The notes below the pieces were generated by a model, which did no database searches, had not been told where the DNA came from, and saw only the letters and a program-made list of their open reading frames with translations. From assembly GCF_009914755.1 (NCBI RefSeq), contig NC_060934.1: a DNA stretch of 64,000 bases; one strand, written 5' to 3'. Shown in pieces: positions 27,201 to 30,200 of this stretch. Made by a program: the position numbers and the translations under genes. Each line of letters opens with the position of its first letter. The first letter of the stretch is position 1. The stretch is from the human T2T-CHM13v2.0 reference genome, Homo sapiens.

Positions 27201-30200
27201 AAAAGACTTACTCTCGGCTGGACACAGTGGCTCACGTCTGTAATCCCAACACTTTGTGAGGCCAAGGCAGGCAATCACCTGAGGTTGGGAGTTCGAGACC
27301 AGCCTGACCAACATGGAGAAACCTCGTCTCTACTAAAAATACAGAATTAGCCAGGCATGGTGGGGCATGCCTGTAATCCCAGCTACTCAGGAGGCTGAGG
27401 CAGGAGAATCACTTGAACCTGGGAGGCAGAGGTTGTAGTAAGCCAAGATCACACCATTGCACTCCAGCCTGGACAGCGAAACTCTGTCTCAAAAAAAAGA
27501 CTTACTGTATAGCTATAGTAGTCAAGATTATGTGGTGTCGATGGAGGGACAGACACGTAGATCAATGGAAAAGAATAGAGAGACCAGAAATAAGCTCAAC
27601 ACAAATATGTTCAGTGGATTTTTTGACCAAGATGTAAGAACAATTCAGTGGAGGAGGAATAGCCTTTTCAATAAGTGGTGGAGTGATTAAAATCCATAGG
27701 AGGAAAAACCAAATGAACCTTGACCTAAACCTCATACCTTACAGGAAAATTAACTCCAATGGATCATAGATTTAAATGTAAAGCTATAAAAACTTTAGAA
27801 ACAGGAGAAAATCTTCAGGATCTAGAGCTAAGCAAAGAATTTTTAGCATGTTTGGCAGTCCTGTGGATCTGTCTCTTGCCTCAACACTGTCTGGATGGAA
27901 CAGATCCGGGGGAGACTCTCTTTCAAAAAAAGTAATAATTTTTAGACTTGACATTAAAAGCACAATCTAGAAAAGGAAAAATTGATAAGTTGGGCTACAT
28001 TAATATTTTTAAAAGTTTTGTTCTATGAGAGCCTATGTGAAGAGGATGAAAAGACAAGCTGTAGACGAGGAGGAAATATTTGCAAATCACATATTTGAAG
28101 AAAGGTATCTGTAATATAAAAACTCTCAAAACACAACAGTGATAAAACAATCCAATTATTAATAGAAAATGGACAAAACATAGGAACAGATGTTTCACCA
28201 AAGAACACATACAGATGGCAGATAGGCACATGAAATGAAGATAGCATCATTAACCATCAGAGTACTGCAAACTAAAACCACAATGAGGCTCACACCTGTA
28301 AGCCCAGCACTTTGGGAGGCTGAGGTGGGTGGATCACCTGAGGTCAGGAGTTTGAGCCCAGCCTGGCCAACATGGTGAAACCATGTCTCTACCAATAAAT
28401 ACAAAAATTAGCTGGGCGTGGTCACACACACCTGTAGTCTCACCTACTGAGGAGATTGAGGTGGGAGGATCGCTTGAACGCAGGAGGTTGCAGTGAGCTG
28501 AGATCGTGCCACTGCACTCCTGCCTGGGTGACAGAGCAAGACTCCAAAAAATAAAAACACAATGAGACATCACTACCCACTTTTCAGAATGGCTGAAATA
28601 AAAAGTAGTGACAATACCAAATGCTGAAAGGACGTGGAGAAACTGGGTCATTCATATATTGCTGGGTGGGAATGTAAAATGGTACAGCTACTCTGCTGGC
28701 AGTTTCTTATAAAATGAAACATATAATTACCATACAACCCAGCAATTGCACCCTTGGACATTTATCCCAGAAAAGTGAAAGCTTACTTTCTCATAAAAAC
28801 CTGTACATGAATGTTTATAGAAGCCTTAGTTGTAATAGCCAAAAACTGGAATCGGCCCAGATGACTTTCAATAGGTGAATAAACTGTGGTACATACACAC
28901 CATGGAATACTATTCAGCAATTTAAAGCAACAGACATCTCCAGGGAACTATGCTGAGTGAAAGAAAAGCCAATCTAAAAAGGTTATGTAATATATAATTC
29001 CACTTATATAACATTTTTGAAATGACAGAACTTTAGAATTTGAAGACAGGCTGGGCGCAGTGGCTCACACCTGTAATCCCAGCACTTTGGGAAACTGAGG
29101 CTGGTGAATCACTTGAGGTCAGGAGTTCGAGACCAGCCTGGCCAACATGGTGAAACCCCATCTCTACTAAAAATACAAAAATTAGCCAGGCGTGGTGGCT
29201 CGCACCTGTAATCCCATCTACTTGGGAGGCTGAGGCAGGAGAATCACTTGAACATGGGAAGCAGAGGTTGCAGTGAGCTGAGATCCTGCCTGCACTCTAG
29301 CCTGGGCAACAGAGTAAGACTCCATCTCAAAAAAAAAAAAGAATTTGAAGACAGATTGCTAAGGATTAGGGATGGGGGCAGGAAGGAGGAGGTGGGTGTG
29401 GTTATAAAAGGGCAACATGAGCTGGGCATGGTGGTGCATGCCTGTAGTTCCAGCTACTCTGGAGGCTGAGACAGGAGGATCACTTGCGCCCAGGAGTTTG
29501 AGGCTGCTGTGAGCTATGATCATACCACTGCACTCCAGCCTGGGTGACAGAGCAAAACCTGTCTCTAAAAAAAGAAAAAGGCAACATGAGGGATACTGTT
29601 GTGGTGGAACTGTTCAGTATGTTGTTTTGTGGTGGATACCCAAACCTACACAGGTAATAAAATTGTATAGAAATTAATACACACAAAAATGCAAGTAAAA
29701 CAGGAAATCTGAATAAGATCAGATAGTATCTTGATTATGATATTATACTATAGTTTTGCATAATGTTACCATTGGGATAAACTGGGCAAAGTGTATAAGG
29801 GACCTTTTTGTATTATTTCTTTACAACTGCATATGAGCCTATAATTTTCTCAATAAAAATTTGTATTTGAGGCTGGGTGCAGTGGCTCATGCCTATAATC
29901 CCAGCACTTCAGGAGGCTGAGACGGGAAGATCGCTTGAGCCTGGGAGTTCAAGACCAGCCTGGGCAACATAGCGAGACCCCATCTTTCCAAAAAAGAAAA
30001 AAAAAATTAGCCAGGTGTGGTCACATGCACCTGTAGTCCCAGCTACTCCAGAGACTGAGGCAGGAGGATCACTTGAGCCCAGGAGTTTCAGGTTGCAGTG
30101 AGCTGTGATTGTGCTACTGTGCTCCAGCCTGGGAGACAGACCAAGACCCTGTCTCAAATAATATAATTAATATATTTCTATTTGAAAAAAAAAAAAAAGA

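What the first reader, a model, noticed from the sequence alone, without database searches (positions are those of the whole stretch)
27831..27945. Retroposed iron-responsive element: only the first ~78 nt of FTL mRNA, A-tailed and TSD-flanked, inside a GBF1 intronic L1
Seen: the L1 sequence ...GCAAAGAATTTTTAG|ACTTGAC... is interrupted by CATGTTTGGCAGTCCTGTGGATCTGTCTCTTGCCTCAACACTGTCTGGATGGAACAGATCCGGGGGAGACTCTCTTTC plus A7. AATTTTTAG is duplicated (27838-27846 and 27937-27945), and there is a perfect 8-bp basal stem (GGATCTGT 27865-27872 / ACAGATCC 27900-27907). Established: this matches the cap-proximal FTL 5' UTR and IRE as I recall it, differing mainly by CpG decay. Normal L1-made retrocopies keep the 3' end and lose the 5' end; this one does the reverse and ends where FTL has no internal A run. 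Inference: the template was a short adenylated RNA consisting of the capped IRE hairpin, either a prematurely terminated promoter-proximal transcript or an IRP-protected decay intermediate. That would be fossil evidence for a small IRE RNA species in the germline, possibly an IRP decoy.
Basis: partly seen in the sequence, partly recalled or inferred. Interest (0 to 1): 0.85.

Follow-up and report, generated by a model that had tools for sequence, protein, structure and literature searches.

The report
Retrocopy of short FTL leader RNA
A 78-base fossil copy of just the capped, hairpin-forming start of the ferritin light-chain mRNA sits in a GBF1 intron; it is one of at least seven such copies in the human genome, and they match a short RNA (FTL_short) already seen in cells.

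Summary
Window 27847-27924 copies the first ~78 nt of FTL mRNA (E 9.6e-13). It has an A7 tail and a 9-12 bp target-site duplication, and it lies inside an old dispersed repeat whose other copies read straight through the site.

It is not a one-off. In this assembly I found 7 independent 5'-only FTL copies and 14 longer FTL retrocopies that keep the same 5' end. All seven begin at the old FTL cap site. They end within about 10 nt of each other: two at the 3' base of the long IRE hairpin, and three at one identical base at the end of the CU run. FTH1 has no such class (0 of 16 copies).

The predicted RNA is already published. FTL_short is ~80 nt, northern-confirmed, U-tailed by TUT4/7, degraded by DIS3L2, and unresponsive to iron (Łabno 2016, PMC5137419). 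That paper does not mention retrocopies, and my searches found no description of this family.

The window copy's IRE is decayed: Rfam 28 bits against a cut-off of 34, and a loop change equal to the Verona-1 +41G>C mutation.

Verdict: a real, ordinary L1-made small-RNA retropseudogene, and a new member of a known kind. The IRP-decoy idea has no support.

The parts
27835..27846 (+). 5' copy of the target-site duplication (AAGAATTTTTAG; perfect core 27838-27846)
   Evidence: family D2. Other copies of the host repeat carry this stretch only once.
27847..27924 (+). Retrocopy of the first ~78 nt of ancestral FTL mRNA, from the cap site to the end of the CU run after the IRE hairpin; equivalent to FTL_short
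   Evidence: 83% identity to FTL exon 1 over 73-76 nt, E 9.6e-13; alignment with the FTL gene, the long pseudogenes and the other short copies.
27865..27907 (+). Extended IRE hairpin with a perfect 8-bp lower stem (27865-27872 / 27900-27907)
   Evidence: I6; fold of the copy, -25.9 kcal/mol.
27869..27903 (+). Decayed iron-responsive element. The loop reads CACTGT at 27885-27890, and the C at 27887 replaces the G of CAGUGN.
   Evidence: IRE_I 28.0 bits against a gathering score of 34, with non-standard pairs marked. The change sits at the same position as Verona-1 +41G>C, listed as disrupting IRP binding (PMC12652614 table).
27925..27933 (+). Remnant of the 3' A tail (A7 followed by GT)
27934..27945 (+). 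3' copy of the target-site duplication (AATAATTTTTAG)
27641..27846 (+). Left part of the old dispersed host repeat (recognised as L1 ORF2 3' region from recall)
   Evidence: many genomic copies match query 2-207 at 69-83% identity.
27939..28140 (+). Right part of the same host repeat, contiguous with the left part in other copies
   Evidence: copies match query 300-501 directly next to their 2-207 match.

Best explanation
Window 27847-27924 is an L1-made retropseudogene. Its template was not FTL mRNA but a discrete ~75-80 nt capped RNA made of the FTL leader, the species published as FTL_short.

Shown:
- The insert starts at the old FTL cap site and stops a few bases after the long IRE-containing hairpin.
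- It carries an A tail and a target-site duplication, and it interrupts an older repeat.
- Six other independent insertions have the same two ends.
- Such an RNA exists in human cells.

Inferred:
- Pol II terminates early, or the transcript is trimmed back, just 3' of the stable leader hairpin (+11..+68, about -32 kcal/mol).
- A fraction of this capped, structured RNA escaped decay in germline or early-embryo cells.
- That fraction either received an A tail or was reached by L1 ORF2p through a template switch from another poly(A).
- It was then copied to its cap by target-primed reverse transcription.

The copy in the GBF1 intron is a decayed fossil with a dead IRE and probably has no function.
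For: Anatomy of the window copy.

Empty site at the level of the repeat family: with at least 19 copies whose flanks abut.

Census (classified):
- 7 5'-only copies: the window, C9:117917689, C14:15712104(-), C13:59303306, C14:63885796, C7:39321256 and C2:61747813.
- 14 longer copies that keep the 5' end.
- No copy ends anywhere between about +80 and exon 2.

3' ends:
- Three copies end after the same 10 nt past the G run, where long copies continue with TTCCAG.
- Two more end within about 3 nt of that point.
- Two end at GGGGACT(C), the 3' base of the predicted hairpin.

Target-site duplications: 9/9, 15/15, 12/13 and 10/12; one is weak (7/8), one is gapped, and one copy has none that is clear. 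All seven copies have different flanks, so they are independent insertions.

The states that the short copies share against the modern gene also occur in old long copies, so they came from the FTL gene of their time.

FTH1 control: 0 of 16 copies are 5'-only (also 14 FTH1-derived loci, 13 with all four exons and L034 lacking exon 2 and part of exon 3). Fisher one-sided p = 0.011 against FTL's 7 of 21.

Published RNA: FTL_short is ~80 nt, covers the IRE stem-loop, and was confirmed by northern blot (PMC5137419).

Published pathways that fit:
- Structured TSS-proximal Pol II RNAs are DIS3L2 targets (PMC5069555, passages).
- Prematurely terminated RNAs are U- or A-tailed (PMC11609308, abstract and passages).
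- snRNA pseudogenes carrying poly(A) arise either by template switch or by recruitment of adenylated RNA (PMC4476161, section 7).
Against: - FTL_short is reported as U-tailed, not A-tailed. From recall, uridylation is thought to hinder L1 priming, so the tail's origin is open.
- The exact 3' end of FTL_short is not given in the text I read, and the supplement could not be searched. Agreement is therefore on '~80 nt' and 'IRE stem-loop' only.
- All seven short copies carry old FTL states, and none looks as young as the two youngest long copies. A link to the present-day RNA made in HEK293 cells is an extrapolation.
- The modern leader is about 4 nt shorter in the very CU run where most copies end.
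- One short copy (C14:15712104) has no clear target-site duplication.
- The genome search scores only the best candidates, so counts are lower bounds and the short-to-long ratio is approximate.
Confidence: 0.85

Rival explanations
1. The template was full-length FTL mRNA. Either the reverse transcriptase began on the poly(A) tail and jumped within the same RNA to about +77, or a full retrocopy later lost everything between +77 and its tail.
For: L1 reverse transcriptase is known to switch templates (PMC4476161). FTL mRNA is abundant and has produced at least 14 long retrocopies.
Against: - Seven independent events would have to share one landing zone of about 10 nt. Under uniform placement on an mRNA assumed to be ~880 nt long, this is of order 1e-12.
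- There is no A run at +78 to guide a T-ended cDNA.
- A later deletion would not leave the A tail and the target-site duplication directly abutting.
- No other FTL segment lies within 1.5 kb of any short copy.
- End-to-end template switching would itself need an RNA 3' end at about +77.
Confidence: 0.04
2. One accidental 5'-only copy became a transcribed master and spread like a tiny SINE. On this view the seven copies record one odd event rather than a recurrent RNA species.
For: The three most diverged copies (C13, C7, C2) share an A near the 5' end and the CpA form of one CpG site.
Against: - The copies start at the FTL cap site and carry no upstream flank from a putative master.
- The states the short copies share are also in old long FTL copies. 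The shared CpA is a common decay product.
- The 3' ends fall into two classes that do not follow that grouping.
- No internal promoter is evident.
- An RNA of this size is made from the FTL gene itself today.
Confidence: 0.06
3. The template was a short leader RNA, but it arose by decay of mature FTL mRNA. A 3'-to-5' exonuclease stalled at the hairpin, or at bound IRP, instead of transcription terminating early.
For: Two copies end exactly at the 3' base of the predicted hairpin and the others end 7-10 nt beyond it, as expected for exonuclease stalling.
Against: - Full-length FTL mRNA did not change when FTL_short accumulated, and FTL_short did not respond to iron treatments that change IRP binding.
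- FTH1 has an equally good IRE and binds IRPs (established knowledge) but has 0 of 16 short copies.
- DIS3L2-bound 5' mRNA fragments in general match sites of Pol II stalling (PMC5069555).
Confidence: 0.2

Closest known systems
FTL_short RNA (Łabno et al. 2016, Nucleic Acids Res, PMC5137419)
   Same: It comes from the FTL 5' UTR, covers the IRE stem-loop, and is ~80 nt. The retrocopies are 65-84 nt, and the window copy is 78 nt.
   Different: The RNA is described in HEK293 cells as U-tailed and as a DIS3L2 substrate. The genomic copies carry A tails and derive from older versions of the FTL leader. The paper does not mention retrocopies ('retrotranspos' and 'LINE-1' 0 occurrences; 'pseudogene' once, in a reference title).
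snRNA, Y RNA and other small-RNA retropseudogenes made by L1 (Doucet et al. 2015, PMC4476161; Y RNA pseudogenes from recall)
   Same: A short structured non-mRNA template is copied to its 5' end, followed by an A-rich tract and flanked by target-site duplications of variable length. Several of these RNAs are also DIS3L2 substrates.
   Different: The template here is the first 75-80 nt of a protein-coding Pol II transcript, not a dedicated small-RNA gene. No chimeras with L1 3' ends were seen among the seven copies.
Retrocopies of microRNA precursors mir-373 and mir-498 (Pan and Lin 2020, PMC7692494, abstract read)
   Same: The poly(A) is attached directly to the end of a hairpin region, which the authors take as evidence that the parental transcript can end there.
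   Different: Those parents are microRNA genes and the events are primate-specific. Here the parent is a housekeeping mRNA leader.
Ordinary FTL processed pseudogenes
   Same: Same parent gene, same 5' end, same L1 machinery.
   Different: They contain exons 1-4 joined together and the mRNA 3' end. The window copy stops at about +78.

Membership tests
L1-mediated (target-primed) retrocopy | Target-site duplication directly flanking the insert | tested here: met
   9 of 9, or 11 of 12, at 27835-27846 / 27934-27945. The stretch is single-copy in other copies of the host repeat.
L1-mediated (target-primed) retrocopy | 3' A-rich tail not present in the parent | tested here: met
   A7 at 27925-27931. 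FTL reads CCAGCC at that point.
L1-mediated (target-primed) retrocopy | Endonuclease-type target site (TT/AAAA-like) | tested here: inconclusive
   By inspection of the output, the window site is GC/AAAG or AG/AATT. Two other short copies (C7, C14:63.9M) have TT/AAAA.
Functional iron-responsive element (Rfam IRE_I, RF00037) | Score at or above Rfam's gathering threshold | tested here: not met
   28.0 bits against 34. The FTL gene scores 57.1.
Functional iron-responsive element (Rfam IRE_I, RF00037) | CAGUGN apical loop | tested here: not met
   The loop reads CACUGU. The same change, +41G>C, is listed as disrupting IRP binding.
Functional iron-responsive element (Rfam IRE_I, RF00037) | Location in the UTR of an mRNA | tested here: not met
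   It lies in a GBF1 intron between the exons at 25688-25841 and 30341-30566 (hub annotation).
FTL_short-derived retropseudogene | 5' end at the FTL cap site | tested here: met
   The insert starts where old long FTL retrocopies start.
FTL_short-derived retropseudogene | 3' end just after the leader hairpin, total length ~80 nt | tested here: met
   78 nt, ending 10 nt past the G run. The hairpin spans +11..+68. The published size is ~80 nt.
FTL_short-derived retropseudogene | Recurrence: independent copies with the same ends | tested here: met
   Six more copies with different flanks.
FTL_short-derived retropseudogene | Exact match of the 3' end to the mapped 3' end of the RNA | not testable with these tools
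   No coordinate is given in the text read. The supplement was not searchable.
Conventional FTL processed pseudogene | Contains coding exons and the mRNA 3' end | tested here: not met
   Only FTL +4..+76 matches. There is no other FTL segment in the 3 kb held.

The most novel reading that the evidence does not exclude
The FTL leader hairpin plus its CU run acts as a long-maintained promoter-proximal terminator. It yields an abundant capped IRE RNA in germline or early-embryo cells. The seven retrocopies, spread from roughly 80% to 93% identity, record tens of millions of years of this output. The RNA would then be a regulated product, either an attenuator of FTL transcription or a buffer for IRPs, rather than transcriptional waste. 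Its absence for FTH1 would mark a real difference in how the two ferritin genes are controlled.
Probability: 0.12. Interest if true: 0.75.

Novelty: new member of a known kind. Interest (0 to 1): 0.45.

Why it matters
- The copies give independent, evolutionary evidence that FTL_short is a discrete RNA with defined ends. They show it was made in cells that contribute to the germline over a long period, and that it is not a peculiarity of one cell line.
- They map its likely 3' ends to the base of the leader hairpin and the end of the CU run.
- They show a gene-specific contrast with FTH1.
- More generally, short A-tailed copies that start at a cap site could serve as a fossil record of promoter-proximal terminated transcripts. 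Gene-based retrocopy catalogues may miss them, because they contain no coding sequence (inference).
- For the GBF1 locus itself the insert is most likely inert.

Tried and rejected
- **Literature searches that gave nothing specific:** ferritin light chain with processed pseudogene, retrocopy and IRE (1 unrelated paper); FTL with promoter-proximal and short capped RNA; premature polyadenylation with processed pseudogenes (general L1 papers only); FTL with TSS-miRNA (0 papers); retrocopies with prematurely terminated RNA (no paper on mRNA-leader retrocopies in the listing).
- **Supplement of PMC5137419:** not searchable.
- **Empty-site test against loci already held:** only one weak, too-diverged match. 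Replaced by the whole-genome query.
- **Pfam on four translated pieces of the host repeat:** no family.
- **Extra census queries** with the C9 and C2 copies found no new loci.
- **A possible FTH1 5'-only copy at C14:60108897** was fetched. It runs on to FTH1 +247, so it was rejected.
- **Separate master copy:** rejected, because the distinguishing bases are also in old long FTL copies.
- **A canonical poly(A) signal upstream of the shared end:** none is visible in the aligned leaders (by inspection).

Full report
**1. What is in the window**

One search shows an insert at 27847-27924, followed by seven A (27925-27931) and GT. The twelve bases 27934-27945 then repeat 27835-27846 with one mismatch; the core AATTTTTAG is 9 of 9. 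The insert contains a perfect 8-bp inverted repeat, 27865-27872 with 27900-27907.

Rfam's IRE_I model matches 27869-27903 at 28.0 bits, E 1.9e-4. This is below the family's gathering score of 34, and several pairs are marked non-standard.

The insert lies in the sense orientation in a GBF1 intron (hub annotation).

**2. The parent is FTL**

The window's own assembly could be searched. The 87-nt query hit C19:51960192-51960264 at 83% identity, E 9.6e-13. The surrounding locus has four segments that intronless copies elsewhere carry joined together, so it is the FTL gene.

Taking +1 as L011:1190, the hexaloop falls at +39 to +44. This agrees with the numbering in the hyperferritinaemia-cataract literature (table in PMC12652614).

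**3. The insertion site**

A 501-nt query across the site returned many copies of the host repeat at 66-83% identity. For at least 19 of them, one match covers query 2-207 and another covers 300-501 at abutting or 3-12 nt overlapping genome positions. None covers query 212-289, which is most of the insert.

The insert is therefore a later arrival in an old dispersed repeat, and the duplicated flank is single-copy in the family. I recognise the repeat as the 3' part of L1 ORF2, but that is recall; Pfam gave nothing on four translated pieces.

**4. It is not a one-off**

Five queries were used, and each returns lower-bound counts because only the best candidates are scored:
- the window copy (10 matches);
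- Rfam IRE_I over the genome (32 matches, from 82 scored of about 1.28 million first-look candidates);
- the C14 short copy (19 matches);
- the 5' end of an old long pseudogene (21 matches);
- the C9 and C2 short copies (and 2 matches, with nothing new).

BLAST of the FTL and FTH1 genes against every fetched locus sorts the FTL-derived copies that keep the mRNA 5' end into two classes, with nothing in between.

*Long copies (14).* These reach at least exon 2, and mostly exon 4: C20:4.05M, C23:30.22M, C1:104.20M, C7:46.16M, C20:47.71M, C10:16.09M, C19:3.85M, C17:16.29M, C17:22.88M, C11:115.55M, C11:66.77M, C1:36.49M, C4:60.12M and C15:90.52M. The two C17 copies look like one event that was later duplicated. 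One further IRE hit, at C5:83.9M, was too weak to classify.

*Short copies (7).* These match only about FTL +4..+76: the window, C9:117917689, C14:15712104 (minus strand), C13:59303306, C14:63885796, C7:39321256 and C2:61747813.

A query with FTL exon 4 listed 25 non-parent rows. I did not fetch them. Six rows on C23 match only the first 143 nt at 70-74% and may be other ferritin-family genes. Overall, roughly a quarter of all FTL-derived retrocopies are of the short type.

**5. Shared ends**

All seven short copies begin at the same place as the old long copies. Their 3' ends are:
- The window, C14:15.7M and C13 copies end after the same ten bases past the G run, where the long copies go on with TTCCAG.
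- C7 ends within about 3 nt of that point.
- C14:63.9M ends there with a few odd bases before A11.
- C9 and C2 end at GGGGACT and GGGGACTC.

The human leader folds into one long hairpin from +11 to +68, at about -32 kcal/mol. The two shorter ends coincide with its 3' base, and the others lie at the end of the CU run that follows (the script's string began at +2, and I have corrected for that here).

Insert lengths are 65-84 nt. If 3' ends were placed at random on an mRNA assumed to be about 880 nt long, seven falling within one 10-nt span would have a chance of order 1e-12.

**6. Hallmarks of independent L1-type events**

Each short copy is followed by an A-rich tract. Target-site duplications are:

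| Copy | Target-site duplication |
|---|---|
| C9 | 15 of 15 |
| C7 | 12 of 13 |
| C2 | 10 of 12 |
| Window | 9 of 9 (11 of 12) |
| C13 | about 15 nt, gapped (by eye) |
| C14:63.9M | 7 of 8 (weak) |
| C14:15.7M | none clear |

The flanks all differ. No further FTL segment lies in the roughly 3 kb held around any of the copies.

**7. No separate master copy is needed**

The bases that set the short copies apart from the modern gene also occur in the older long copies. These bases are a different first ~10 nt, A rather than G in the lower stem, and a CU run about 4 nt longer. They are absent from the gene and from the two youngest long copies. They are therefore earlier states of FTL itself.

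Identity of the short copies to the modern gene ranges from 80% to 93% over 46-76 nt. This suggests insertions spread over a long time, but such short alignments date poorly.

Three of the more diverged copies (C13, C7, C2) share two characters, which I read as age or CpG decay. A common founder for those three is not excluded.

**8. FTH1 control**

Of the 14 FTH1-derived loci from the IRE search, 13 carry all four exons and one (L034) lacks exon 2 and part of exon 3. A query from the FTH1 cap site to +98 gave 16 non-parent hits. Fifteen reached within 2 nt of the query end. The sixteenth, once fetched, runs on to +247 with no A tail after the hairpin.

So 0 of 16 FTH1 copies are short, against 7 of 21 for FTL. 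The one-sided Fisher test gives p = 0.011.

**9. The RNA is already known**

Łabno et al. [quoted passage not shown] They named it FTL_short and reported the following:
- It was confirmed by northern blot.
- It accumulates when DIS3L2 is catalytically dead.
- It carries non-templated U in 39.6% of 3'-end reads in wild-type cells and 63.3% in the mutant.
- It does not change with iron loading or chelation.
- The authors leave open whether it is functional or a by-product.

The paper does not mention retrotransposition ('retrotranspos' and 'LINE-1' 0 occurrences; 'pseudogene' once, in a reference title). 'FTL_short' occurs in only that one paper of the searchable library. My other searches found no description of these copies. 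Subscription journals and unsearchable supplements may hold one.

**10. Mechanism**

Published context fits the following route.
- Short structured Pol II transcripts from cap-proximal regions coincide with stalled polymerase and are cleared by TUT4/7 and DIS3L2 in the cytoplasm (PMC5069555, passages).
- Prematurely terminated RNAs are exported by PHAX and can be U- or A-tailed (PMC11609308, abstract and passages).
- For snRNA pseudogenes that end in poly(A), Doucet et al. propose two origins: an early template switch from an L1 poly(A) tail, or direct use of small RNAs adenylated by surveillance enzymes (PMC4476161, section 7).

I infer the same two options for FTL_short and cannot choose between them. 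A-rich tracts of about 25-40 nt before the downstream TSD copy at C9 and C2 fit either option.

**11. State of the window copy**

Its loop reads CACUGU. The change falls on +41, the position of Verona-1 +41G>C, which is listed as disrupting IRP binding. By inspection, two of the five upper-stem pairs are also broken, and marks non-standard pairs. It sits in an intron. I see no reason to expect function.

**12. Verdict**

The RNA is not new, and the decoy idea has no support. The family of seven retrocopies appears undescribed. It belongs to a known kind, L1-made small-RNA retropseudogenes.

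Noticed in passing
L011:1190-1270 (FTL gene) compared with old FTL copies, e.g. L022, L026, L031: The modern human FTL leader differs from the version recorded in old retrocopies in three ways. 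The first ~10 nt differ by about 4 nt in length. One lower-stem pair is G-U rather than A-U. The CU run after the hairpin is about 4 nt shorter, exactly where most short copies end. This could have shifted the 3' end or the yield of FTL_short.
   Followed up: partly
L080 (G000:C15:90524521-90526158): A long FTL processed pseudogene has an Alu inserted just 3' of the IRE loop, which splits the hairpin.
   Followed up: no
L037 (C17:16.29M) and L040 (C17:22.88M): Two FTL pseudogenes on the same chromosome have near-identical flanks and the same internal gaps, probably one retrocopy carried in a segmental duplication.
   Followed up: no
G000:C23:36638828-36909392 and C23:33745510: A cluster of hits matches only the first 143 nt of FTL exon 4, at 70-74% identity. 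These may be diverged ferritin-family genes rather than FTL retrocopies. I recall a ferritin-heavy-like gene cluster on Xp21, but did not test this.
   Followed up: no
window 27000-27490 and 28270-28555: Two tandem Alu elements lie just upstream of the host repeat, and a third Alu is inserted inside it about 330 bp downstream of the FTL insert (recognised by eye).
   Followed up: no
L033 (G000:C13:59303306-59303366 and the next ~40 nt): An Alu begins right after the A tail and the downstream copy of the target-site duplication of the C13 short copy.
   Followed up: no
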